Virus record (IMG/VR): IMGVR_UViG_3300045988_138926
Coordinates: 17,121-81,120 of that record
Source of the DNA: a virus
Strand: one strand, 5' to 3'
DNA length: 64,000 nucleotides
Below are positions 15,954 to 64,000 of the stretch, in pieces (position 1 is the first letter of the stretch; the number at the start of each line of letters is the position of its first letter). The position numbers were made by a program, and so were the translations under genes. The notes beneath the pieces are model-generated. The model was given only the letters and a program-made list of their open reading frames with translations. It made no database searches and was not told the DNA's origin.

Positions 15954-17018
15954 ATGATCTTTGTTACGTGCTTCATGCACGTATGTTTAACAATTAAATA
16001 CTATAAAATTATGGGTGGTGATAAAATCGTCCTTTTAGATGGAGCCGGGGCTAACGGTGGTGGTGCAGCCACTAACGGTCTTCTTTCAATGATTCCCGGC
16101 ATGTTTGCTAATTTGATAGGTGGTAATAAAATGGATCCGAATCTGGTGGCGGCTTTGATGAACGGTCGTAACAACCAGGACGGTTTCGGTGGGGCTAACG
16201 GTTGGTGGCTCTGGATAATTGTTTTGTTCTGGCTGTGGGGTGGACGCGGCTTCGGTAACGGTTTTGGAAATGGCGGTGATTGTTGCGCCAATGGTTTGCC
16301 GGCTCAGTTGAATAACGATTACGGTCGTGAACTTTTGATGCAGGCAATTCAAGGTAATCGTAGCGCCATAGATCAGATTGCTTCTGCTTTGAACTGTTCT
16401 ACTACTCAACTTCAGAACGCTATCTGCAACGTACAGGGTGCTATTGATAAAGTAGCTGGTCAGGTAGGTATGACTTCTCAGGCTGTTATCAACGCAGTTC
16501 AACAACAAGGTTGTGAAATAGGAAATCAAATCAGCTCTTGCTGCTGCAATCTGAGTTCGTTGATCAATCAAAGCACTTGCCAGACTCAGGGAATGATTAC
16601 TCAGCAAGGTTTTGATAACCAGCTTCGCACGTTGGAACAAACCAATATCTTGCAGAACGGTCTCAACCAAGGTCTGGCTAACAATCGTGAGCAAGCTACA
16701 AGCCAATTCAATATCTTGTCTGCGAAACTTGACGCCCAAACCGTTATGATCAACGACAAATTCTGTCAGTTGGAAATGAGGGAGATGCAGAACACTATTG
16801 CTCAACTTCGTGAAGAAAAAGCGGCTTTGACAGCTTCGGCATTATCTCAGCAACAAACCCAGAATATCGTTGGTCAATTACGCCCGACGGCCGTCCCGGC
16901 CTACCCCTCTTGTTCTCCTTACCAGGCTTATACTTGGGGACAGGTATTCGGAGGAGGTTGCTGCAATAACGGATGTGGATGTAACAACGGATGTTGCAAT
17001 AACAACGCTGCTGTCTGA
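15954..17018 (+). CDS. Gly/Asn/Cys-rich low-complexity protein with one predicted TM helix, 354 aa
   Basis: N-terminus GAGANGGGAATNG..GFGGANG, then hydrophobic WWLWIIVLFWLW. A Gln-rich central segment. C-terminus GGGCCNNGCGCNNGCCNNNAAV. Two long antisense shadow ORFs (16086-16805, 16795-17370) are rejected. Confidence 0.7.
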   Translation: MIFVTCFMHVCLTIKYYKIMGGDKIVLLDGAGANGGGAATNGLLSMIPGMFANLIGGNKMDPNLVAALMNGRNNQDGFGGANGWWLWIIVLFWLWGGRGFGNGFGNGGDCCANGLPAQLNNDYGRELLMQAIQGNRSAIDQIASALNCSTTQLQNAICNVQGAIDKVAGQVGMTSQAVINAVQQQGCEIGNQISSCCCNLSSLINQSTCQTQGMITQQGFDNQLRTLEQTNILQNGLNQGLANNREQATSQFNILSAKLDAQTVMINDKFCQLEMREMQNTIAQLREEKAALTASALSQQQTQNIVGQLRPTAVPAYPSCSPYQAYTWGQVFGGGCCNNGCGCNNGCCNNNAAV

Positions 17019-17505: not shown

Positions 17506-18000
17506 TTGATCATGTTTTCAGATTTGAAGAAAGGGTTTCAGGTACATACCCTTGATACTAATACAGTACCTAAATACGAATTGGGAAAGGTAGTAGCCGT
17601 ATCCGAACCCAGGTATCTTCCTCCTCAGCCAGGTCAGTATCAGGCGATGCAGACCCGCGTGGTGGATCTGACGGTAGAGCTCACTGGCGAAACCAAGACC
17701 TATACGGTCCCGGAATCCCAGAATGTGGCTAAGGCTATGGGCATAACATTATCTACCAGCATAGATCCGATTATGAACGAACTGAATGCCATAAAAAGCA
17801 CCAGTCAGGAAATAATAGACAGCGTAGATGCCCATCGTGCCAAGATAGAGGCTTGTGAATCTATATTAGAAGACATCAATCCGGCATTCAAACAAACGAG
17901 AGAGCAGGATCGTAAAATAGCTGGTATAGAAAATAAGGTGAATGACCTTACTGATTCATTCGAAGATTTAAAGAAGTTAATTGTAGAACGTTTGAAATAA
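17506..18000 (+). CDS. hypothetical protein, 164 aa
   Basis: ORF with a coiled-coil-like C-terminus. Confidence 0.6.
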   Translation: MIMFSDLKKGFQVHTLDTNTVPKYELGKVVAVSEPRYLPPQPGQYQAMQTRVVDLTVELTGETKTYTVPESQNVAKAMGITLSTSIDPIMNELNAIKSTSQEIIDSVDAHRAKIEACESILEDINPAFKQTREQDRKIAGIENKVNDLTDSFEDLKKLIVERLK

Positions 18001-37211: not shown

Positions 37212-37311
37212 ATCCCATATTCTATTAAATATATTTAAAGTTATTCGTATGTTTTAATACATCCCCTCGGAGACCTTTCGGTCTCCTTGGTAGATGTAAA
37301 TCCCGTTAGGG

Positions 37312-37523
37312 ATAAGTCAGGATTTCTCCTGTAAGTACCCATCGCCAATGTTATAAGAGGTTTTATATAATGGCAACACTGTTTCGTCAAATACACTACT
37401 CCTGTTTAATCACCATCCTTAGAGCTACGGACTTGGGTAAACATCCGTAGGTAACTATCTATTCTCAAATAACGTAGCCTTCGTTTCAAGGCTTAGGCTA
37501 ATAACCCGATCTCTGAAAGAGAT
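37312..37523 (-). ncRNA. orphan IscB-type omega-RNA (HEARO)-like structured RNA, paralog of the element upstream of iscB
   Basis: About 75 percent identical over roughly 210 nt to 49176-49387 in the same orientation. Differences are compensatory in at least three stems: cagga/tcctg vs cagag/ctctg, agcctt/aaggct vs agtgtt/aacact, and atctct/agagat vs aatagc/gctatt. Strand is inferred from the iscB copy. Confidence 0.55.
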
Positions 37524-37750
37524 GTATTAAACTTTTATAATAGAATTATATTAGTTTAATACTATTTGGGGTTATAACACTGATCATAATGCTTGGTCAG
37601 TTCTTCTGGTTCTAAATCTTGTCCAAAATCCATGTTAAAAATATCGTAATTAGTAAAGCACTAAAAATCACTATTCCTGCTGGCATGAAATCTATAAATG
37701 CTGCTTTTGCTTCTTCAATTAGGCCCAAGTGTAACCTTGGGCCATTGTAT

Positions 37751-47437: not shown

Positions 47438-47924
47438 TCTTCTTCTCGCCTAATTTTTCAGCTCCCTTCTGAAGATCGTATTTGAATACGTCAATGATCT
47501 TCGTTTCAGCAATAGCTTCGCAATTCCAGTCTCCTAACGTGCCCTGCATACCTTTAGTTAACACAGCTTCGGCATCTTTAGGATTGCCGGCTTGGACATA
47601 CATATAGCATGGCGTTTTCTTTTCTTTACCTTTCTTTTCATCCAGTGTAATGTAATTCACCTTGCACTTATACCAGTACTCAGCTTCTCCGTTGAAAAAG
47701 ATTTCTGACACTTTAATAGGGTTAATTTTTACAACCTCGAAAGAATTGTACAAATCCTTAAAGATCTCCAACGATCTTGATTCTGCCTCTGTATAAGACA
47801 AGGCATCTACCAAATACTTTTCAGTTACTTTCTTTTTTTTGCCGTTCTCGATATTATCAATCTCGGCTTTTACCGTAATTTCAAACCAACGATTCATGTC
47901 TATATTTTTATTCAAATTAATCAA
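47427..47924 (-). CDS. hypothetical protein, 165 aa (TTG start in track; the ATG at codon 10 is a more likely start)
   Basis: ORF. Confidence 0.5.
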   Translation of the reverse strand: MINLNKNIDMNRWFEITVKAEIDNIENGKKKKVTEKYLVDALSYTEAESRSLEIFKDLYNSFEVVKINPIKVSEIFFNGEAEYWYKCKVNYITLDEKKGKEKKTPCYMYVQAGNPKDAEAVLTKGMQGTLGDWNCEAIAETKIIDVFKYDLQKGAEKLGEKKSEE

Positions 47925-49147
47925 TCCATTTCCTTTTGTACCATAAAGCGTTTACACCTTGATAATTTCAATTTCTTGTATGTAATATCTCTTTGGTTTT
48001 TACCATCAATATCTCGAATATTAAAACTACCGGTTTTACGCCTTGCAAATATAAAGTAATAACTGTTTTCAAACATAACCCTATCAAACAATCGGAAACC
48101 AAAAACTTCAAAAGGAGATTGATTTGGTCTTTTTATCCCTCCTTTTGGAATCTTTTGTTTATGGATCTGACGATTATGTCTTCTTACTAATCTTACTTTA
48201 TAATAATAACCTAACCTTATAGCATCAAAGTTTTTAGAAATAACAAATGCATCGAAAACATGAGATTTTTCAATACCATGTTTAATCCTATTGTATTTTG
48301 TAACATAACCGAAAGTCATAGAAATGTTGTCGTATTTAGATTTTAGTTCTTCATACAATCTCCATTTCATTATTCCCATTACGGCTGCGTCGCGAAGCGA
48401 CTTGCCTCTTCTGATCTTTAAATCTATATTACCTTTATGGTATTCTTTATGACAAGTTTCACATAAGGTAATAAGATTAGATGGGGAATCTCCACCTGTC
48501 TTTCGTGATTCAATATGATGAACATTCAATACTGGGTCTTTTGACTTTCCCTTACAATGCTGGCATTTATGTCCATCTCTTGCTAAAACATATTCCCTAA
48601 CGTTCCAAAATCCAAGTTGATCACCCTCCTGATATTCTTTACCTGATATATTAGGATTGTTAATCTTTTGAGTATCAAATTGAGCTACTTCGATAACAAT
48701 ACGAGATATTGGTAATATAGAACATACATTGTCAATAACACGAATATGGGCGTCTACTTTGTATTTCACCGAAGGTGCTACCCATCCCGGACGCTTACTT
48801 TTTATTCTATTATCAAAACGAGGTTTTCTATATCTCAATCTATTTCGTCTTGATCTTCGTAGCTCCCTTCTGGTAGACAAAAGATCTACAATATCATTTC
48901 TAAGGATTACTTCACTACTGTAAAGTTCTTTGCTTTTCGTTGTAGCCGATAAACCAACATGTTTAGTACCAGCATCAACGCCTAACACAATTTCTTGTTT
49001 GTAATCAGATGTTACGTACATTAATTTGATGGTAAACGGACATAGGTTTACAACGACTGCCTTTTTGTCTTTAAGCAGTCTCCTAACCTTACCATGCCTT
49101 GTTGTGGGCATCATAGGTTTACCATTTATGTCTTGTACGTACACCAT
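47921..49147 (-). CDS. iscB: IscB, RNA-guided HNH+RuvC nuclease of the IS200/IS605 (OMEGA) family, 408 aa, catalytic residues intact
   Basis: PLMP-like N-terminus (KPMMPTTRHGKVRRLL). RuvC-I IVLGVDAGTKHVGLS. Arg-rich bridge helix RRELRRSRRNRLRYRKPRF. RuvC-II IVIEVAQFD. HNH CQHCKGK...NVHHIESRKTGGDSPSNLITLCETCH. RuvC-III HVFDAFVIS. Confidence 0.85.
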   Translation of the reverse strand: MVYVQDINGKPMMPTTRHGKVRRLLKDKKAVVVNLCPFTIKLMYVTSDYKQEIVLGVDAGTKHVGLSATTKSKELYSSEVILRNDIVDLLSTRRELRRSRRNRLRYRKPRFDNRIKSKRPGWVAPSVKYKVDAHIRVIDNVCSILPISRIVIEVAQFDTQKINNPNISGKEYQEGDQLGFWNVREYVLARDGHKCQHCKGKSKDPVLNVHHIESRKTGGDSPSNLITLCETCHKEYHKGNIDLKIRRGKSLRDAAVMGIMKWRLYEELKSKYDNISMTFGYVTKYNRIKHGIEKSHVFDAFVISKNFDAIRLGYYYKVRLVRRHNRQIHKQKIPKGGIKRPNQSPFEVFGFRLFDRVMFENSYYFIFARRKTGSFNIRDIDGKNQRDITYKKLKLSRCKRFMVQKEMD

Positions 49148-49175: not shown

Positions 49176-49387
49176 ACATAAGTCAGAGTGAAACTCTGTT
49201 AGTACCCATCGCCAATGTTATTTAAGGTTTTTTTGTAAGCAACACTGTTCCTGAATACCAGAACTGTTTAATCACTTACCTTAGAGCTACAGACTTGGGC
49301 AAACATCCGCAAGTAACTATCTATTCTTAAATAACGTAGTGTTTGTTTCAACACTTAGGCTAATAATCGGAATAGCTTTTGGCTATT
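49176..49387 (-). ncRNA. omega-RNA (HEARO-type) scaffold upstream of iscB
   Basis: Lies 29 nt upstream of the iscB start. Hairpin-rich (cagag-tgaaa-ctctg; agtgtt-tgtttc-aacact; aatagc-ttttg-gctatt). Has a covarying paralog at 37312-37523. The guide segment is expected just beyond 49387. Confidence 0.6.
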
Positions 49388-49600
49388 ATGCATAATACAA
49401 TACAAATTGGTTATGATTTGTATGAGTTATGTATTATTCTCGATTATTCGTAGCTACGAAATACTTACACCCCTCTAAGTGCGTCAGGGCTTCAATTATA
49501 GCATTCTTTATCTCTTTTTCTTCCATTATGTTTGTTTTTTTTGGACAAAGATATGTCTTTTGATAATAAAAAAGATTCAAAATGATTTAATTTAGCTTAA

Positions 49601-50044: not shown

Positions 50045-51260
50045 CTCAGTTGCACCTTCTACGGTTCTAAAACCGATGCCGATATCTTTTAACTTGACAC
50101 ACTCCCATCGCTAAAGCAAATGGGATTCTTGGATACAAACGCAAGAAACCCCGATATTAATATCGCTGGAATTACTCTTGCTCTCCAATTCGGAAATGCC
50201 CTTCCGAAGTATATTACGGGCTGCAAGAACATCACGGTCGTTAACCGCGCCGCACGACGGGCATACCCACGTGCGGTCGCGTAACGACAGTCCTTTATTA
50301 ATGCAGCCACATTCACAAGTTTTGGAAGAAGGATACCATTTGTCAATCTTGTGTATCGTTACTCCATACTTTGAAGCAACGTACGTAAGTTTATCAATAA
50401 AAGAAGAATGACTAAGATCGGAAACTTTCTTTCCCCACAAACGTCTCATTCCTTCAATGTTTAGATCTTCAATAAAAATATAATCATATTGTTTACACAA
50501 CTGGTGTGCTAATCCCCATTGAAAGTCTGATCGAAGATCGTTTATTTTACGATACGCTTGTTGGAGTTCAAACAGTCTCCTTCTTCTATTGTTGGATCCT
50601 TTCTTTGCATTAGAAAGCTGTTTGTTTAGTTTTCTAATCTTGTTTTGATATTGTTTGAAGAATAGAGGAGAATCAATTTTGTTACCATCGCTTTTAGTTA
50701 GATAAGTTTTCAGCCCAAAATCCAACCCTATAGATGCACCATCATGTGTCTTTCTATAAGAGTTTATAAGATTATGATCTGTAATAATTATCAGGCTATA
50801 TCGATAGCATGTTTCTCTAACTATTCTAATTTGTTTAACATTACCTTCGTAGACTCTACTGTATGAAAATCTAAATCGTTTCTTTCCTTTATTGATTGTT
50901 AGACAATTACCATTCAGGGTAAACCCACCTTGTTTGAATACAAAAGAATTGAATTTCTCCGGTGATTTAAACTTAGGAGGTCGTTTAGCCAACTTCTTAA
51001 AGAAACGATTATAAGATTCATCAAGACGTTCAAGTATTTCTTGCACTGTTTGGGAATGAAGAAGATTTCTTTTTATCCTTTTAGCAAAATGCTTCTTCAT
51101 CTTACCAATTGATATATATTTTCCAAACAGTTTGTAGTATCTACGTTGTAGAGCTAACGCATGATTCCATACAAAACAACATTCTCGAAGCATTTTGTCC
51201 AGATACTTCGTTTTCTTGGAATGATAGATGTTGTATTTGTATGAAATCATTTTTTTATTT
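49950..51260 (-). mobile_element. IS200/605-family TnpB-only element; right end and omega-RNA expected within about 49950-50250; boundaries approximate
   Basis: Inferred from TnpB, whose omega-RNA derives from the ORF 3' end plus right end. No TnpA ORF nearby. Confidence 0.4.
50111..51250 (-). CDS. tnpB: TnpB, RNA-guided RuvC nuclease of the IS200/IS605 family, 379 aa
   Basis: RuvC-I ASIGLDFGLKTY. RuvC-II IFIEDLNIEGM. Zinc finger CECGC...CPSCG. RuvC-III NDRDVLAARNI. The 3' part is locally GC-rich relative to the rest of the window. Confidence 0.85.
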   Translation of the reverse strand: MISYKYNIYHSKKTKYLDKMLRECCFVWNHALALQRRYYKLFGKYISIGKMKKHFAKRIKRNLLHSQTVQEILERLDESYNRFFKKLAKRPPKFKSPEKFNSFVFKQGGFTLNGNCLTINKGKKRFRFSYSRVYEGNVKQIRIVRETCYRYSLIIITDHNLINSYRKTHDGASIGLDFGLKTYLTKSDGNKIDSPLFFKQYQNKIRKLNKQLSNAKKGSNNRRRRLFELQQAYRKINDLRSDFQWGLAHQLCKQYDYIFIEDLNIEGMRRLWGKKVSDLSHSSFIDKLTYVASKYGVTIHKIDKWYPSSKTCECGCINKGLSLRDRTWVCPSCGAVNDRDVLAARNILRKGISELESKSNSSDINIGVSCVCIQESHLL

Positions 51261-58016: not shown

Positions 58017-58043
58017 GCACCACTACTGCCTTATGTTTAACAA

Positions 58044-58853
58044 TTAAATACTTAACTCTTCAATGGTCAAGCCTTTTTCTTTTGCCCACTTTAGCATCGC
58101 GCATAATTCTGTTTCTGACTTATATTTCGGATCACGCCACGCCCATCCGAATTTATCCAGGACATGATGATATAATTCGTCGGCCTTTGCCGTGTAAATG
58201 TCTTTGAATAAATGCTCCGAACCTTCCGGTATAAGCATCTCTGTTGTTGCAAAATCGGAATACGATAAACATCCGTAAGCATATTCTGTTATTTCACTCC
58301 ATGCTTCTCCGGCTTTAAATCCAAATTCTTTTACAAAAGCCAAAGTTAGATACATATTTAATAATATTGTTACATCATATTCCGAATCTGACTTTCTTTC
58401 TATTATTTCCTTTTCAAATTCCTTTAAATCTTCAGGCCCTAAAAAGATGTATCCTGATACCGACCGGTAATTAGCCTCCGCATACTTCTTGCATTTATCA
58501 TCATTGGCAATCTTACCAATGTTAGATAACATCTTTTGCCTCCATTCATCACAAAACTCTACCCTTACATCCATCCAATCAGTACCATAATTGTGATCTT
58601 TTGGATGTCCGACCGATATTACCTTTATGTTATTCACACCATATTCATAAAGGCGTTCGCCCACCTTATTCGCCCATTCCTGTACAAAAGGAATAAACTT
58701 ATTGCAATAAGAATCAAAATCAAAATCTAATTCATCCTCATATTCTGGCATCTCTTCATAATCTTGTTCAAAGAAATAGCGAGGATCTGCTATTGTTTCA
58801 TAGAAACTTACGTTAATGAAACAAAACTCGTTGGTTGTCGTTTTTAATATCAT
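58044..58853 (-). CDS. hypothetical protein, 269 aa
   Basis: ORF. Confidence 0.6.
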   Translation of the reverse strand: MILKTTTNEFCFINVSFYETIADPRYFFEQDYEEMPEYEDELDFDFDSYCNKFIPFVQEWANKVGERLYEYGVNNIKVISVGHPKDHNYGTDWMDVRVEFCDEWRQKMLSNIGKIANDDKCKKYAEANYRSVSGYIFLGPEDLKEFEKEIIERKSDSEYDVTILLNMYLTLAFVKEFGFKAGEAWSEITEYAYGCLSYSDFATTEMLIPEGSEHLFKDIYTAKADELYHHVLDKFGWAWRDPKYKSETELCAMLKWAKEKGLTIEELSI

Positions 58854-59956: not shown

Positions 59957-60304
59957 TTATTTTTGTGGTATTATTTGACTGTATGCAGACTTTTCCATGT
60001 ACACAACACTATGCTCCTGTCCAAGTATTTTCTTTGCTGCCTCTTTCTTTATCGCACAATATCTCCCTGTACGATACGGATTCTTTTGATCTGATCCATC
60101 CTCGACTTCGATAATAAAACAGCCTCCGTCATCTATTATCTTTTTGCAATTGTCACATACTCCTCCCGTGCATATATGATGCGGCGCCTGACCTTTGATG
60201 TTATTCCCTAATAAAGCAATCCCCATCTCTTCTCCACATATCATGCAGACTTCTATAGACGGATTCAATCCGTGTTCTGGATGTAATGTAATACTGTCTT
60301 TCAT
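59957..60304 (-). CDS. zinc-ribbon protein, 115 aa
   Basis: CMICGEE...HHICTGGVCDNCKK. Confidence 0.5.
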   Translation of the reverse strand: MKDSITLHPEHGLNPSIEVCMICGEEMGIALLGNNIKGQAPHHICTGGVCDNCKKIIDDGGCFIIEVEDGSDQKNPYRTGRYCAIKKEAAKKILGQEHSVVYMEKSAYSQIIPQK

Positions 60305-60333
60305 TTTCTTTCCTCCTTTGTTTTTAATATTGT

Positions 60334-60404
60334 GTGAGATCGCCGGAATCGAACCGACCTACCGCACCATGAATCCCATAAAGCAAATGCTCCGATCTTC
60401 GCAG
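60334..60404 (-). tRNA. tRNA-like element (T-arm GGUCGGUUCGAUUCCGGC plus acceptor 3' strand); 5' half non-canonical
   Basis: Ends ...GGUUCGAUUCCGGCGAUCUCAC. The flank TATTGTGTGAGATCGCC parallels element 1. Confidence 0.3.
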
Positions 60405-60646
60405 ACGGGAGCATTCTGTCTAAAGCATAAGAAAATTAATGAAGAAAATCTTCCTCACTTACGCCATAGCATCTAAAATAGCTATCAACACTATTTCTAT
60501 GACAAGCATAATAGAGAATGTCTTAAATATCTTTTTCATATCTCCTCCTTTTTTATCTGTTCTTTTCACGTTCCACAATAAACTGTTCCGGCTCTGCTCC
60601 GACCTACGTTCCACCTACAACCGCAGGCCTTAGCCCAAGGCGCCGC

Positions 60647-60907
60647 CTACTCCCCCTCTATGGCAGCCTGTTCGTACCTACAACACCAGTCTCCATCTAT
60701 ACAACTATTGCTATGCGATAACAAACATTTATCCTTATAACAATCATAAAAAATACATCTCTCACAACTGTAATCCCTAACATCTACACAGCTAACTACC
60801 TTAGCATATACTATACCATCACTGCCTTCTATTCCTTTTACCCCAAAAATAGAACCTTCTCCCTCCTTACTCAAATCTAAGTCAGGCGCAAAGTCATATA
60901 CGTTCAT
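60647..60907 (-). CDS. Cys-rich small protein, 86 aa, first gene of the minus-strand array
   Basis: Multiple Cys. ORF at the edge of a 2-kb non-coding region. Confidence 0.45.
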   Translation of the reverse strand: MNVYDFAPDLDLSKEGEGSIFGVKGIEGSDGIVYAKVVSCVDVRDYSCERCIFYDCYKDKCLLSHSNSCIDGDWCCRYEQAAIEGE

Positions 60908-60984
60908 GTTGTTTATGTTTTAATTGTTATACATTCCGATTACTACTAATCTATAGAATATAGGTTTCAACTCTCAACCTATTG

Positions 60985-61146
60985 AATTTTGTAGAATAAA
61001 CTCACATTATGCCGTTTTAAAGCACTGTAAGTCTTAATTTTGTAGGAAAACCCTACATAATGCTGTTTTAAAACGCTGATCTGTTGAATGTTGTTGGAAA
61101 ACCCTACATAATGCTGTTTTAAAACGCTGATCTGTTGAATGTTGTC
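60985..61146. repeat. tandem direct repeats, about 51-bp unit, 2 perfect plus 1 degenerate copy
   Basis: ggaaaaccctacataatgctgttttaaaacgctgatctgttgaatgttgtt at 61045-61095 and 61096-61146. A degenerate copy lies at about 60985-61035. Confidence 0.8.
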
Positions 61147-61147
61147 T

Positions 61148-61190
61148 GTTGAATTTTGTTGGAAGGAAGTTGAATTTTGTTGGAAGGAAG
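61148..61190. repeat. tandem 21-22 bp repeat x2 (gttgaattttgttggaaggaa), followed by a polypyrimidine tract 61195-61230
   Basis: Seen directly. The motif TTGAATTTTGT also occurs at 60981 and 61033. Confidence 0.8.
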
Positions 61191-61923
61191 TGCCCTCCCT
61201 CTCCCTCTCCCCAACCCCGGCTGATCCTCCGACTTTCTGCATAGAAACTGCGCTCTCGGCCTCACTACAGGCATACGGAGAGCGCTACAAGCTTATACTA
61301 TGGCATGGGATATGGGGTGTTTAGAGATAATATCATTCCATAGAGAGAATAGAGAGCCTTCAGCCCACGCCCTACCGTCTGCTCCTCCTATCAAGATAGA
61401 TATTCAAACCTATAATCAAAGCCAAAAACAAAAAGCAAAAGACCATTACAACATTATACTGATCCGCTCCGTACTCCAACATAGAACGAATACCAACCGA
61501 CAGAAAATAAAGATCAGCTACTAATAAAAACCACCACATAAAACAAAAAAAATACAATAAGTATGTCCGAAAATACGGGTATTATAAAGCATAACTAATT
61601 GATAATCAAGCATACCTTATTTTTAAGAAAAATACAATAAGCCCAATTTTCAATCCATAGAGACGAAAAAGGCGGCATCCGACACCATATTTTGGGTCAG
61701 AAAACCGCCTACAGTTTCGTTTTAGACCAATTTTAACGACAATATATAGACAAAATACCGGCATTATATCCAAACAGCCTTATTTTTGTTTCAATTTGAA
61801 CCAATATACGCATTCCTACCTTGTTTGTCGTCGTGTTCACTCTCAGAATATCCTACCCGTAAATAGAAAGAGTAGGATACAAAAATAGGGCTGCTCCGAT
61901 ATTCGAAACAACCCTATTCCTAT

Positions 61924-62130
61924 TTAAATACTGTTTATATTTTCCTTAACGTACGTTCTTGACGTATGAACTTTACGCTTGCACTTTTCTTTTCCGGTAT
62001 CGGAATGATACGCCTCTTTGAGATCACGATACAACATAAATTCACGATACGCTCTTTTCCGCTTTTCTTTGGCTTCTTTCCTGGACAGACCGCGAACATC
62101 TACCATGTAAGATTTAAATTTCCTTTCCAT
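61924..62130 (-). CDS. small basic ORF, 68 aa, in a gene-poor region; weak
   Basis: Lys/Arg-rich ORF. Confidence 0.25.
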   Translation of the reverse strand: MERKFKSYMVDVRGLSRKEAKEKRKRAYREFMLYRDLKEAYHSDTGKEKCKRKVHTSRTYVKENINSI

Positions 62131-62346
62131 TTTCTTTATGCTTTAATTATGATTAACCCCAGCGGTTAAGTGCTTCAATATAGAAACCCTCCGCCTCTTT
62201 GTACTCACTTTCGCTTAATGTTTCCACTGTATCTATGTAGTTACGCAATGTTATTTTTACGCAACTGTTTTTAGATTTATTGAACGCTTCAGTTAAAGCG
62301 TTAATCATTGCTTTCTTTTCCATGCTATTATATTATTTATAATTTA

Positions 62347-62410
62347 GAGGTTGCTCTGGAATCGAACCAGACACGCATTCCTATTCTATACGAATTTTAT
62401 GCTACAACCA
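62347..62410 (-). tRNA. short tRNA-like element (perfect T-arm UCUGG-UUCGAUU-CCAGA, acceptor GGUUG/CAACC); only about 63 nt, D-arm not evident
   Basis: Minus-strand RNA UGGUUGUAGCAUAAAAUUCGUAUAGAAUAGGAAUGCGUGUCUGGUUCGAUUCCAGAGCAACCUC. Confidence 0.3.
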
Positions 62411-62880
62411 ACAGCCCGTAATTAGTACGTAGTTCTTGTGTACAGGCCCGTACTATGTTGTTATTATATTTTCCGTCTGCTACACTATTTCGCCACACAT
62501 AACGGCATAGTGTCCTTGCGTTTTGATACGACACGTCCCTACATGGTAGGCTACATGCTTGTACCCTGTAATTTAATCTACAGCCTTGTTCTATTTTTTC
62601 GTGTAAGCAAGTAAGACACGTTTCGATCTGGAGATAAACCTCGTACAACGGTATGTTTTCCAAACTGTACTAACATACCTAACATAAACCACACTTATTT
62701 AGTGCAGTTCATGCAGCAATACCGTATTTTTAATTGCCAACGGCTTCGATACCGGTATATCTATCTCCAATATGTAAAATAACTCTCTGTTTTGTCAGCT
62801 TCAGTCTAAAGCATACGCGGGACGTGCACCCACTGACAACGGCGTACAGACGCGTTAAGGTACGCGCCCAACCTTGTTTT

Positions 62881-63420
62881 TCACTGCTGATTGCTTTCGT
62901 GTGCTAAATACTCAGATACACACTTTGCAACGGTACGAATAGAATAAGATTTGATCTTAACGGCTACATAAGTAGATTTATATTCGTCCGTCTCTTTAAC
63001 GATCCATTTTGCACTACTTTTCGTTTCCAACGTTTCCGCGGTTGCAAATCCGAAAGGCTTATACTCACCGCCATAAACTACATTATCGGAGCACCAATCA
63101 GCTGCTTTCGCCTCAATTCCTTTCTCTTTGTCTACTTTGTTATCCTTATATACTTTAGAGTATAGGGAAAACTTAATAAAGGTGTCGCCGACTTTAGGTA
63201 ACATTTGGCTACATACAGCAACTAAACGTTTTTTGTCTTTGGCGAGTGCTGCCACCTTCACCGCGTATTCTGCCGGTATTTCCAACGCTTTACATACCGC
63301 CTTGAGGTCTGCACAATTTGCAAATAAAGCATTGTACAACTTTACTGCACCTACTAAATTCGAGGCATTCTCTTTGATAACAGCGTTTTGCAGCTTGTTA
63401 ACGTTCTTCTTCGTAATCAT
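62881..63420 (-). CDS. hypothetical protein, 179 aa
   Basis: ORF with Lys/Ala-rich composition. Isolated gene upstream of a non-coding terminal region. Confidence 0.55.
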   Translation of the reverse strand: MITKKNVNKLQNAVIKENASNLVGAVKLYNALFANCADLKAVCKALEIPAEYAVKVAALAKDKKRLVAVCSQMLPKVGDTFIKFSLYSKVYKDNKVDKEKGIEAKAADWCSDNVVYGGEYKPFGFATAETLETKSSAKWIVKETDEYKSTYVAVKIKSYSIRTVAKCVSEYLAHESNQQ

Positions 63421-63649
63421 AACTCAATATATTTTAATTGTTAAACAAATGATATTCAATTTAATAGCCCACAACGCAGGCGATTAACAGATATAGATAT
63501 AGTTAGCCCAACGGGTACACTATATAGGTTTATCATGTCAACTATGTGCTATCGCTTTAACACATTGCAAATATACTACATTTATCAATACTACAAATAT
63601 ATATGCTATCTTTTTTTTGTTAACTTGTATTAATTTCGATTATATTATC

Positions 63650-63796
63650 TGATTATCAGCAAGTTATAAAACGAACGAGAGCAGTATTATACGCGTACAT
63701 TAATATGTAGAATATATGCTTATTTAAGTTGCTTATAATCAATAGGTTATAATAATACATTGATTATCAATAATTTAAATAAGTGATTGATAATCA
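63650..63796. promoter_or_regulatory. three copies of the 9-bp palindrome TGATNATCA (63650, 63761, 63788; a fourth at 61600), candidate operator or initiator sites
   Basis: Seen directly. Two copies extend to a similar 16-mer, TGATTATCAGCAAGTT and TGATAATCAGCGAGTT. Confidence 0.4.
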
Positions 63797-63818
63797 GCGA
63801 GTTTTTAGGTTTGAGGTA

Positions 63819-63875
63819 AAAACGCGTTTCCGGTTTTCCAGCGAAGGGGGTGTGGGGAAGAAAACGCGTTTCGGG
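63819..63875. repeat. two copies of the palindrome AAACGCGTTT within 15-bp repeats (AAAACGCGTTTCCGG and AAAACGCGTTTCGGG), 42 bp apart, flanked by G-rich and then C-rich tracts
   Basis: Seen directly. Confidence 0.7.
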
Positions 63876-63907
63876 GGCGGGAGGTTCGTGATAGGTACCC
63901 CCTCTCT

Positions 63908-64000
63908 CCCATCACATAAACATTTCACCATTCCTCTCCCTCATCACATAAACATTTTTCATATCCCTCATCACATAAACATTTTTCATATCCCTCATCA
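63908..64000. repeat. 27-bp tandem direct repeat array (ccctcatcacataaacatttttcatat), at least 3.3 copies, truncated by the window end
   Basis: Copies at 63938, 63965 and 63992, plus a degenerate copy at 63908. No spacers, so not CRISPR. Confidence 0.8.

What the first reader, a model, noticed from the sequence alone, without database searches (positions are those of the whole stretch)
60908..62880. Two-kb almost gene-free region with iteron-like tandem repeats: candidate replication origin or structured-RNA locus
This region sits between the last minus-strand array gene (60907) and ORF 62881-63420, and it has no convincing ORF. It contains 51-bp tandem repeats (two perfect copies plus one degenerate copy), a 21-bp tandem duplication, and the recurring short motif TTGAATTTTGT.

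It also holds a long polypyrimidine tract (cctccctctccctctccccaacccc), A-rich tracts, several 6-7 bp stem hairpins, one TGATAATCA palindrome (61600) and a tRNA-like element. The only long ORF called here (60979-61242 minus) is an artefact of translating the repeats.

In a genome otherwise packed at about 95 percent coding density, 2 kb of repeat-rich non-coding DNA is a strong candidate for an origin of replication with iterons, or for non-coding RNAs.
Basis: seen in the sequence. Interest (0 to 1): 0.55.

Follow-up and report, generated by a model that had tools for sequence, protein, structure and literature searches.

The report
Large structured RNA in crAss-like phage
The supposedly empty 2-kb stretch of this abundant human-gut (epsilon crAss-like) phage holds three tiny protein genes, transcription terminators, the probable DNA-packaging start point and an uncatalogued ~530-base folded RNA with a tRNA-like end, all flanked by hypervariable tandem repeats, and nothing found here points to a replication origin.

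Summary
The repeats, C-rich tract, palindrome, hairpins and tRNA-like element are all present at the stated coordinates. The interval is not gene-free, and no evidence supports an origin.

Comparison used about 130 related loci. These were IMG/VR contigs plus GenBank OR575929, the epsilon crAss-like phage crAssE-Sib.

- **Small genes.** Three small minus-strand ORFs are real genes by codon-position variability: 55 aa with two predicted transmembrane (TM) helices, 68 aa, and 56 aa.
- **False ORFs.** The 88-aa ORF and the ORF across the repeats are not coding.
- **Structured RNA.** 62346-62875 (minus strand) is a conserved, nearly indel-free RNA. 99.5% of cells are paired. 23 pairs show compensatory double changes, against 1-6 in slid controls. 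A 4-5 bp terminal helix stacks on a perfect T-arm. It has no Rfam match.
- **Tandem arrays.** The 51/21-bp array, and a second 27-bp array at 63.9 kb, vary from 2 to about 11 copies between relatives. They are where most assemblies break.
- **Genome start.** The PhageTerm-defined genome start of crAssE-Sib maps to 61841|61842.
- **Origin signals.** Cumulative GC skew of the complete relative turns at the strand-switch points, 18 kb or more away. There are no DnaA boxes at the locus.

Verdict: a new large phage ncRNA inside a packaging and regulatory hub. The function of the arrays is unresolved.

The parts
60908..60979 (-). AT-rich (26% GC) leader upstream of the first gene of the long minus-strand array (ATG at 60907). 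It contains the box TGTATAACAATTAAAA (60918-60933), which recurs before the 179-aa gene at 63432-63447.
   Evidence: (D7)
60980..61191 (.). Tandem array 1: 51-bp units x3.2 plus 21-bp units x2.1. The shared core is TKAATTTTGTTGGAAG. The long units add CTACAnAATGCTGTTTTAAAAC, which contains the 10-bp palindrome GTTTTAAAAC. Copy number ranges from 2 to about 10 in relatives, and assemblies frequently break here.
61193..61218 (.). Conserved polypyrimidine tract, read as GGGGTTGGGGAGAGGGAGAGGGAGGG on the minus strand. It fits a G-quadruplex sequence pattern by eye.
   Evidence: column conservation 0.93-0.96
61372..61539 (-). Gene for a 55-aa protein, MWWFLLVADLYFLSVG...RRSRR, with two hydrophobic helices. 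The ORF list places its start upstream at a TTG (61557), but the conserved start is the ATG at 61539.
   Evidence: codon position 3/1/2 variability 399/139/26; intact in 65 of 66; no Pfam or PHROG hit
61540..61669 (.). Conserved A-rich spacer. It carries the direct repeat AAAAATACAATAAG x2 (61545, 61625) and the palindrome TTGATAATCAA (61599-61609).
   Evidence: D10; 92.8% mean identity; no covariation
61659..61710 (-). Hairpin AGGCGG...CCGCCU followed by UUUUU on the minus strand. This is an intrinsic-terminator-like element and may act in both directions.
61841..61842 (.). Position homologous to base 151256|1 of OR575929. That genome start was set from PhageTerm read-start analysis (P = 1.5e-22). 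The flanking sequence GTTCACT|CTCAGAATATCCTACCC is nearly invariant.
   Evidence: PMC11054128; 61843-61923 is the most conserved segment, 95.8%
61850..61920 (-). Two hairpins: ATCCTAC...GTAGGAT (61850-61878), and the intrinsic terminator AAUAGGGUUGUUUCGAAUAUCGGAGCAGCCCUAUUUUUG that directly follows the stop codon of the 68-aa gene.
61924..62130 (-). Gene for a 68-aa, very basic (K/R-rich) protein.
   Evidence: variability 603/158/56; intact in 60 of 82 as extracted; annotated as hypothetical WOZ57216.1 in the relative
62153..62323 (-). Accessory gene for a 56-aa protein, absent from about 30% of relatives.
62346..62875 (-). Structured non-coding RNA of about 530 nt with about 19 helices. The terminal helix GGUU/AACC (62870-62873 with 62349-62352) stacks on a T-arm, UCUGG-UUCGAUU-CCAGA (62355-62371). 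There is a candidate pseudoknot and there are invariant A-rich junctions. The 88-aa ORF 62397-62663 that overlaps it is not coding.
   Evidence: no Rfam match at E<=10
62881..63420 (-). Gene for a 179-aa protein directly upstream of the RNA on the same strand, probably co-transcribed with it. It has no known domain.
   Evidence: AF2 model unusable, pLDDT 39.7
63568..63601 (-). Two Bacteroidota-type -7 boxes, TATATTTG. The second has a TTTG 18 nt upstream. This is the candidate promoter for the 179-aa gene / RNA / small-gene transcript.
63650..64000 (.). Three TGATWATCA palindromes (63650, 63761, 63788), a G-rich tract (63847-63882), and tandem array 2. Array 2 has 27-34-bp units with core CCATCACAYAAAC, present in 2-11 copies in relatives. 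It starts at 63901 and runs off the window end. It is the other assembly breakpoint.

Best explanation
The interval is part of a compact, leftward-transcribed module of an epsilon crAss-like (Crassvirales) phage. It is not a gene desert or an origin.

**Proposed transcript layout**
- A host-type (Bacteroidota TTTG/TAnnTTTG) promoter at about 63.57 kb drives the 179-aa gene.
- Directly behind that gene lies a ~530-nt RNA that folds into about 19 helices. A short terminal helix closes it and stacks on a canonical T-arm, forming an 11-12-bp tRNA-like minihelix.
- Next come one or two tiny protein genes (56 aa and 68 aa).
- Two intrinsic terminators follow.

**Elements further left**
- A highly conserved non-coding stretch contains the site where the closely related crAssE-Sib genome was found to start in virion DNA. 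This would be a packaging start or terminus.
- Then comes a 55-aa membrane-protein gene.
- Then the C-rich tract and tandem array 1, immediately upstream of the long minus-strand gene array.

**Shown:** the coding status of each ORF, the RNA secondary structure and its strand, the hypervariability of the arrays, and the absence of skew or DnaA-box origin signals.

**Inferred**
1. The RNA is cut out of the polycistronic transcript by tRNA-processing enzymes (RNase P at the 5' side, RNase Z or exonucleases with or without CCA addition at the 3' side). It then acts in trans as a stable scaffold or tRNA-mimic RNA.
2. The two arrays are phased binding arrays for a DNA-binding protein, such as terminase small subunit or a regulator. 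They bracket the 2.7-kb module.
For: **RNA**
- 62340-62880 is 0.85-0.99 conserved and almost free of indels across 82 sequences.
- Its longest ORF is intact in 2 of 82 sequences, with variability at codon position 3 lower than at positions 1 and 2.
- RNAalifold on the minus strand gives 135-167 pairs.
- On alignment A1 (76 distinct sequences), 99.5% of cells pair. 23 pairs and 209 cells carry double changes. Shuffles give 12.7+-1.7 pairs and 57.5+-7.8 cells (0 of 500 reach the observed values). Slid controls give 1-6 pairs and 1-32 cells.
- U-G intermediates fit only the minus strand.
- The pseudoknot helix is 98.7% paired, with UA to CG to AU changes at one pair.
- The RNA is present at 84-95% identity in every spanning relative, even where the nearby PNK (polynucleotide kinase) is only 65-73% identical at the amino-acid level.
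- Its mean identity is 90.2%, against 84.2% for the adjacent 179-aa gene.
- Rfam has no match.

**Small genes:**

**Terminators:**

**Promoter boxes:**

**Genome start:** and PMC11054128.

**Arrays**
- Copy-number range.
- 74 of 87 contig ends within 58-64 kb fall in the two arrays.
- Many contigs of about 2.75 kb carry the 179-aa gene.

**Host and phage type:** crAss 'muzzle/ring' proteins and BACON-domain proteins are annotated in the relative. The epsilon group lacks its own RNAP and DNAP (PMC7886860).
Against: - There are no expression data, so the transcript ends, the processing and the promoter are all inferred.
- The single-sequence fold is not unusually stable (z = -1.72).
- The terminal helix is only 4-5 bp and invariant, so it is untested by covariation.
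- All sequences come from one phage clade at 84% identity or more. Covariation events are therefore few and phylogenetically linked.
- No homologue was found outside the clade.
- The RNA could instead be a cis-acting UTR element.
- The genome-start evidence comes from one relative and one program run reported in a paper, not from this genome.
- Nothing identifies the protein that would bind the arrays.
Confidence: 0.72

Rival explanations
1. Array 1, and perhaps array 2, is an iteron-type replication origin. A phage initiator would bind the phased cores, melt the adjacent AT-rich 60908-60979 segment and load the phage DnaB-like helicase. This would suit a phage that has no DNA polymerase of its own.
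For: - The cores are spaced at 21 bp and 51 bp, about 2 and 5 helical turns.
- Each long unit holds a 10-bp palindrome that is unique to this place in the window.
- An AT-rich flank of 26% GC lies alongside.
- Epsilon crAss-like phages encode only a minimal replication set (PMC7886860).
Against: - The cumulative GC-skew extremes of the complete relative are at 17.7 kb and 110.7 kb, not at the locus.
- The window shows no skew inflection at the locus.
- There is no DnaA box within 60.3-64 kb.
- The replication-factor, primase and helicase genes are 15 kb or more away.
- Copy number ranges from 2 to about 10 among genomes more than 90% identical.
- The unit is far longer than classical 17-22-bp iterons.
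Confidence: 0.13
2. The conserved non-coding DNA around 61540-61923, possibly together with the flanking arrays, is the packaging recognition region (pac or terminus). Terminase small subunit would bind repeated elements and cut at 61841|61842.
For: - The PhageTerm start of crAssE-Sib (P = 1.5e-22) maps exactly here.
- The cut-site flank is nearly invariant and is the best-conserved segment, at 95.8%.
- This DNA is conserved without RNA covariation.
- An imperfect 27-nt inverted repeat brackets the site, at 61766-61792 and 61876-61902.
- Known pac and cos sites use arrays of short repeats. This last point rests on established knowledge of SPP1, P1 and lambda, not on a test here.
Against: - The evidence is a single program result from one relative, with the packaging class not reported.
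- The arrays lie 650 bp and 2060 bp from the site.
- The terminase genes are about 20 kb away in the relative.
- Part of the conservation is explained by terminators.
- Contig ends cluster at the arrays, not at the site. Assembly behaviour at tandem repeats explains that clustering.
Confidence: 0.4
3. The repeat units are tandem host-type promoters on the plus strand. They would fire rightwards to make an RNA antisense to the 55-aa membrane-protein gene, in a type-I toxin-antitoxin-like arrangement.
For: - Units contain TAATTTTG, an exact Bacteroidota -7 box (TAnnTTTG), or TGAATTTTG on the plus strand.
- The small hydrophobic protein lies downstream on the opposite strand.
- The hairpin at 61670-61710 has A and T runs on both sides.
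Against: - No TTTG -33 element sits at the expected spacing (reading).
- The window's own units mostly carry the one-mismatch form.
- There is no covariation or other sign of a plus-strand RNA.
- The motif count is inflated by the repetition itself.
Confidence: 0.08
4. 62346-62880 encodes a protein, as annotated in the relative (WOZ57218.1). On this view the protein is hidden by frameshifts or by the stop-codon recoding known in other crAss-like phages.
For: - A CDS is annotated there in OR575929.
- An 88-aa ORF exists in the window.
Against: - The ORF is intact in 2 of 82 relatives.
- Variability by codon position 3/2/1 is 299/511/414. No phase is consistent in 60-nt windows.
- Substitutions are instead explained by base-pair conservation.
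Confidence: 0.02

Closest known systems
GOLLD and ROOL large ornate RNAs (Rfam families; Weinberg 2009 and 2017; cryo-EM nanocages, PMC12286853)
   Same: These are RNAs of 500-800 nt with many helices and unknown function. They are typically carried by phages or prophages and sit near tRNA genes. In the relative, a four-tRNA cluster and RNA-repair genes lie 4-6 kb from this RNA.
   Different: - There is no detectable similarity to either covariance model at E<=10.
- The host phylum differs: a Bacteroidota phage rather than Bacillota or lake bacteria.
- The tRNA-like T-arm/terminal-helix closure is not a defining feature of GOLLD or ROOL.
Bacterial and phage Y RNAs (YrlA), partners of Ro60/Rsr (PMC4201824)
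   Same: - These are ncRNAs with a module that mimics tRNA, including a T-arm, and some are substrates of RNase P and the CCA-adding enzyme.
- The close relative encodes a Ro60 homologue.
- No Rfam Y RNA was found next to that gene.
   Different: - Y RNAs are 80-130 nt and are encoded beside rsr. This RNA is about 530 nt and lies about 75 kb from rsr.
- By-eye scans found no match to the GNCGAAN0-1G motif (reading).
- There is no Rfam match.
tmRNA
   Same: The 5' and 3' ends pair next to a T-arm to form a tRNA-like domain that closes a large, pseudoknotted RNA.
   Different: - ARAGORN at default settings and the Rfam tmRNA models find nothing.
- The terminal helix has 4-5 bp and no G-U alanine identity pair.
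- The only tag-like ORF is not conserved in frame.
Iteron origins (lambda ori, P1 oriR, R6K) and repeat centromeres (F sopC, 43 bp x12)
   Same: Direct repeats in helical phase. Each long unit carries a short palindrome, as sopC units do.
   Different: - No adjacent initiator or partition gene is seen in the flanking genes examined here.
- There are no DnaA boxes and no skew signal.
- The unit is 51 or 21 bp.
- Copy number is highly unstable between near-identical genomes.
pac/cos regions with repeated terminase-binding elements (SPP1 pacL/pacR, P1 pac, lambda cosB)
   Same: A conserved non-coding segment contains the experimentally inferred genome start of a close relative, with repeats and an inverted repeat around it.
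   Different: The region is not next to the terminase genes, the arrays are 0.65-2 kb from the cut, and the packaging class is unknown.

Membership tests
canonical tRNA | Cloverleaf recognised by tRNA detectors (ARAGORN default settings, Rfam RF00005) | tested here: not met
   ARAGORN default finds 0 genes. Rfam tRNA is absent even at E<=10. Only at -ps85 does ARAGORN call a 71-nt 'tRNA-Tyr(ata)', with a mismatched acceptor and a weak D-arm.
canonical tRNA | T-arm with 5-bp stem and a UUCGAUU-type T-loop next to the 3' acceptor strand | tested here: met
   UCUGG-UUCGAUU-CCAGA lies at 62355-62371(-). The stem covaries: CG71/UA5 and CG48/UG27.
tmRNA | Detection by ARAGORN or the Rfam tmRNA models, plus a conserved tag reading frame | tested here: not met
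   Searches find nothing. The candidate tag ORF is frameshifted in many relatives.
Y RNA / YrlA | Size of 80-130 nt, encoded adjacent to rsr, with the Ro60-binding stem motif GNCGAAN0-1G | tested here: not met
   The RNA is about 530 nt. rsr is at 73.1 kb in the relative and the RNA at 0.5-1.0 kb. No Rfam hit. The motif was not found by eye. Ro60 binding itself is not testable with these tools.
GOLLD / ROOL | Match to the family covariance model | tested here: not met
   cmscan of 60500-64000 at E<=10 returns only three chance hits, none of them GOLLD or ROOL.
Structured ncRNA (generic) | Base pairs maintained by compensatory substitutions beyond the controls, with no coding signature | tested here: met
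   23 pairs against 12.7+-1.7 in shuffles and 1-6 in slid controls; no 3-periodicity.
Iteron-type replication origin | Direct repeats in helical phase | tested here: met
   Core spacing is 21 bp and 51 bp.
Iteron-type replication origin | Skew inflection, DnaA boxes, or an adjacent initiator gene | tested here: not met
Iteron-type replication origin | Replication actually initiates there | not testable with these tools
   This needs marker-frequency or 2D-gel mapping.
Type III toxin-antitoxin (ToxIN-like) | Repeat array followed by a terminator, then immediately by a ToxN-family toxin gene | tested here: not met
   Neither the 86-aa nor the 179-aa downstream protein has a Pfam or PHROG hit. 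Array 2 lies 480 nt from its downstream gene.
CRISPR array | Repeats separated by unique spacers | tested here: not met
   The whole units repeat head to tail with no unique spacers.
Phage pac/terminus | Read-start peak in virion DNA | not testable with these tools
   Reported for the relative only (PMC11054128). Homology of the site was shown here.

The most novel reading that the evidence does not exclude
The ~530-nt RNA may be a new class of giant tRNA-mimicking phage RNA that works with the phage's own RNA-biology toolkit. On this reading it would be matured by RNase P and CCA addition. It would then serve as the missing Y-RNA-like partner or scaffold of the phage-encoded Ro60, or as a decoy for host tRNA-targeting defences.

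The toolkit seen in the close relative comprises a Ro60 homologue with no recognisable Y RNA beside it, PNK, an NrnA-like phosphoesterase, six tRNAs and, in some genomes, a CCA-adding-type nucleotidyltransferase.

A second, smaller T-arm-bearing element at 60322-60440 would belong to the same system.
Probability: 0.12. Interest if true: 0.85.

Novelty: new variant of a known kind. Interest (0 to 1): 0.62.

Why it matters
- **Abundance.** Epsilon crAss-like phages are among the most abundant viruses of the human gut, with about 13-18% of crAss-like reads in one survey (PMC7886860). Almost none of their early genes are understood.
- **A concrete object to study.** A universally conserved 530-nt RNA is better conserved than its protein neighbours. 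It is absent from Rfam and is annotated as a hypothetical protein in GenBank. It can be taken directly to RNA-seq, structure probing, cryo-EM and pull-downs.
- **A wider pattern.** It adds a Bacteroidota-phage example to the puzzling group of large phage-borne RNAs (GOLLD, ROOL) and to the tRNA-mimic RNAs.
- **Practical points.** The two tandem arrays explain why assemblies of these phages break here. The locus also contains the probable packaging start. Both matter for genome finishing and annotation.

Tried and rejected
- **Rfam.** Gathering and E<=10 scans of the locus gave only chance hits. A gathering scan of the relative's rsr region and genome ends found only tRNAs.
- **Other non-coding blocks as RNAs.** 61190-61371 and 61540-61923 show no covariation above slid controls on either strand.
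- **Array ORFs as a repeat protein.** The unit lengths of 51, 21 and 27 bp are all multiples of 3, but the reading frame is not conserved.
- **2.7-kb direct terminal repeat between the arrays.** No contig among the 80 loci kept carries the 179-aa gene twice. The PhageTerm start lies inside the segment, not at its edges. Breaks at tandem repeats explain the contig ends.
- **Invertible segment.** All 65 spanning loci are collinear.
- **Protein function.** Pfam and PHROGs found nothing for the five proteins at the locus (55, 68, 56, 179 and 86 aa). For the five downstream neighbours the only hits were an unknown-function PHROG for the 115-aa protein and one sub-threshold Pfam hit. The AF2 model of the 179-aa protein had pLDDT 39.7, so no fold search was run.
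- **Host or prophage search.** The genome-contig scan with a 26-mer from the RNA returned only a 3.9-kb MAG contig and a 234-bp contaminant.
- **Paralogues of the RNA.** An nhmmer search of the window and the complete relative found none.
- **Link to a phage CCA-adding-type enzyme.** That gene is absent from this window.
- **Literature.** No description of a Crassvirales structured RNA was found. I could not check whether the Fremin et al. catalogue (PMC10690425) lists fragments of it.
Full report
**What is in the sequence**

- TRF reports a 51-bp repeat x3.2 at 60982-61145 and a perfect 21-bp x2.1 repeat at 61148-61191.
- The motif TTGAATTTTGT clusters there, with 5 of the 7 window matches at up to 1 mismatch.
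- The C-rich tract is at 61193-61218. The palindrome TGATAATCA is at 61600. Several 6-7-bp hairpins and a T-arm-like sequence near 62360 are visible.
- A second tandem array of 27-bp units begins at 63901 and runs off the window end.
- Four of the five TGATWATCA palindromes in the 64 kb lie between 61600 and 63796.

**Which genome this is**

- The only GenBank phage with similarity is OR575929, 'crAssE-Sib', a 151,256-bp genome at 88-96% identity.
- Its annotation uses crAss001 terms such as muzzle and ring proteins, and lists BACON-domain proteins.
- The paper describing it places it among the epsilon crAss-like phages (PMC11054128).
- This group is about 150 kb, is abundant in the human gut, and lacks its own DNA polymerase and the crAss RNA-polymerase block (PMC7886860).
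- I fetched 154 related loci from IMG/VR, 80 with the 179-aa protein and 74 with the neighbouring PNK. Of these, 65-131 span a given part of the locus.

**Coding status**

I used the relatives to ask which substitutions are tolerated.
- The ORF at 61372-61539(-) is intact in 65 of 66 sequences once the true ATG is used. It is 55 aa with two hydrophobic helices. Its variability is concentrated at codon position 3, at 399 against 139 and 26.
- The 68-aa ORF 61924-62130(-) gives 603/158/56.
- The 56-aa ORF 62153-62323(-) gives 189/79/83 and is missing from about 30% of genomes.
- The 88-aa ORF 62397-62663(-), annotated as a CDS in the relative, is intact in only 2 of 82 sequences and varies least at position 3.
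- The ORF through the repeats changes frame from genome to genome.
- None of the locus proteins matches Pfam or PHROGs.
- The interval therefore holds three small genes. The non-protein-coding parts are 60908-61371, 61540-61923 and 62324-62880.

**The structured RNA**

- 62340-62880 is 85-99% conserved with almost no indels.
- On the minus strand, RNAalifold predicts 135 pairs in 24 helices on a 76-sequence alignment (A1).
- Counting these pairs shows 99.5% of cells paired. 23 pairs and 209 cells have changes on both sides. Shuffles give 12.7+-1.7 pairs and 57.5+-7.8 cells, and 0 of 500 reach the observed values. Structures with the 3' partner slid by 1-3 columns keep relatedness and give 1-6 pairs and 1-32 cells.
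- Several hairpins have three covarying pairs and no violations.
  - One example is columns 196-202 with 208-214: CG65/UA8, CG51/UA24 and CG40/UA34.
  - Another is columns 322-324 with 333-335.
- Frequent U-G intermediates fit only the minus strand.
- A further helix, columns 456-463 with 484-491, would form a pseudoknot. It is 98.7% paired, with UA to CG to AU changes at one pair.
- One internal helix is replaced wholesale between lineages, GUAU/AUAC against GCCC/GGGC.
- The 5' and 3' ends pair as GGUU/AACC. They stack on a 7-bp extended T-arm whose loop is the canonical UUCGAUU. Together these give an 11-12-bp minihelix like the acceptor/T domain of tRNA.
- The RNA is present in every spanning relative at 84-95% identity, even where PNK is only 65-73% identical in protein.
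- On average it is better conserved (90.2%) than the adjacent 179-aa gene (84.2%).
- It matches no Rfam family even at E<=10.
- It has no paralogue in the window or in the complete relative.
- It was not found in representative bacterial genomes, apart from a short MAG contig and a contaminant.
- Caveats: the single-sequence fold is not unusually stable (z = -1.72). All the evidence comes from one clade.

**The rest of the non-coding DNA**

- 61190-61371 and 61540-61923 are as conserved as the genes, at 89.7-95.8%. They show no covariation above controls on either strand.
- They contain two minus-strand intrinsic terminators.
  - One follows the 68-aa gene directly, at about 61880-61920.
  - The other is at about 61659-61710.
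- Base 1 of OR575929 aligns to window 61842, and its last base to 61841. The authors state that this start was set by PhageTerm with P = 1.5e-22.
- The sequence around the site, GTTCACT|CTCAGAATATCC, is nearly invariant. The segment just to its left is the most variable of the region.
- The best reading is that this DNA is conserved for terminators and for packaging (pac or terminus). This rests on one published analysis of a relative.

**The arrays**

- In relatives, the distance from gene 60907 to gene 61924 ranges from 855 to 1218 bp. The variation comes from the number of units, 2 to about 10.
- The shared core is TKAATTTTGTTGGAAG, repeated at 21-bp or 51-bp spacing, about 2 or 5 helical turns. 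Long units add a segment with the palindrome GTTTTAAAAC, which occurs nowhere else in the window.
- Array 2 behaves the same way, with 27-34-bp units in 2-11 copies and core CCATCACAYAAAC.
- Of 87 contig ends that fall between 58 and 64 kb, 25 lie in array 1 and 49 in array 2.
- Many Logan contigs carrying the 179-aa gene are about 2.75 kb long, which is the inter-array segment.
- This is what de Bruijn assemblers do at tandem repeats. It needs no terminal repeat or inversion, and I found no evidence for either.

**Origin test**

- I assembled the complete relative from five fetched pieces. Its cumulative GC skew has its minimum at 17,716 and its maximum at 110,658. These are the two points where gene orientation switches.
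- The locus lies inside a 75-kb block of co-oriented genes, and the skew shows no inflection there.
- No DnaA box with up to 1 mismatch lies within 60.3-64 kb.
- The replication factor, primase and helicases are 15 kb or more away.
- The helical phasing of the cores and the AT-rich flank remain compatible with an origin, so I keep it as a minority rival at about 0.13.

**How it probably works**

*Shown:* gene and RNA content, the RNA strand, the structure, the terminators as sequence features, and the array variability.

*Inferred:*
- Two Bacteroidota-type -7 boxes (TATATTTG, one with a TTTG 18 nt upstream) at 63568-63601 on the minus strand start a transcript. It would cover the 179-aa gene, the RNA and the small genes, and end at the terminators.
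- The minihelix would let host RNase P, together with 3' processing and CCA enzymes, release a stable RNA.
- That RNA would act in trans as a scaffold or tRNA mimic.
- The surroundings are consistent with an RNA-centred function.
  - PNK, an NrnA-like phosphoesterase and four tRNAs lie 2-6 kb away.
  - A Ro60 homologue with no recognisable Y RNA beside it is encoded elsewhere in the relative.
- The arrays are most simply phased protein-binding sites bracketing this module. Whether they serve packaging, transcription control or replication cannot be decided from sequence.

**Comparison with known systems**

- The RNA resembles GOLLD and ROOL in size, ornateness, phage location and tRNA neighbourhood.
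- It resembles YrlA and tmRNA in using a tRNA-like module.
- It fails the membership tests of all of these: covariance models, size, adjacency to rsr, and a tag ORF.
- I therefore class it as a new variant of a known kind, large phage-borne structured RNAs, rather than a member of any described family.
- I found no description of it in the searchable literature. The crAssE-Sib record annotates a hypothetical protein over it.

Noticed in passing
window 60322-60440 (minus strand): A second small structured element sits in the next intergenic region. It has a hairpin AAUGCUCC...GGAGCAUU with three different compensatory variants among relatives. This is followed by a T-arm-like hairpin, GUCGG-UUCGAUU-CCGGC, about 25 nt before the next start codon. 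ARAGORN and Rfam find nothing there.
   Followed up: partly
window 60459-60539 (minus strand): A 26-aa hydrophobic peptide ORF (MKKIFKTFSIMLVIEIVLIAILDAMA) is preceded by a strong AAGGAGG Shine-Dalgarno sequence. Another AAGGAGG precedes the gene starting at 60304. Most neighbouring genes have no such sequence, which is odd for a presumed Bacteroidota phage.
   Followed up: no
window 37331-37575(-), 49198-49414(-), 47921-49147(-), 50111-51250(-): There are two HEARO (IscB omega-RNA) matches above the Rfam gathering score. One lies next to an IscB-like gene (RRXRR + HNH). The other appears to be solo, within a 361-bp insertion (37213-37573) relative to crAssE-Sib. A TnpB gene is also present.
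   Followed up: partly
window 63421-64000: A second regulatory intergenic region lies here. It holds three TGATWATCA palindromes, a G-rich tract (GGGGGTGTGGGG...GGGGGCGGGAGG) that is roughly the inverted counterpart of the C-rich tract at 61193-61218, and the hypervariable 27-34-bp array.
   Followed up: partly
window 60918-60933, 63432-63447, 58034-58049, 15984-15999: The near-palindromic box TGTWTAACAATTAAAW occurs four times with up to 1 mismatch. Two copies lie 8-12 nt before the start codons of the first genes after the two arrays.
   Followed up: no
window 60322 (relatives L002, L003 and others): About half of the relatives carry an extra minus-strand gene of about 395 bp inserted exactly at 60322, next to the small T-arm element. 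Other relatives have 550-980-bp variants.
   Followed up: no
OR575929 (L159-L161, L001): The close relative encodes several RNA-related functions.
- A Ro60/Rsr homologue at 73091-74725, beside tRNA-Tyr and tRNA-Lys.
- PNK, an NrnA-like phosphoesterase and four more tRNAs at 2.6-7 kb.
- A CCA-adding-type nucleotidyltransferase at 137063-137725, which is absent from this window.
- A complete diversity-generating retroelement.
   Followed up: partly
window 61822-61835: This genome and a few relatives carry a 14-nt insertion (ttgtttgtcgtcgt) just left of the position homologous to the crAssE-Sib genome start. The 35 nt to its left are the least conserved part of the locus.
   Followed up: no
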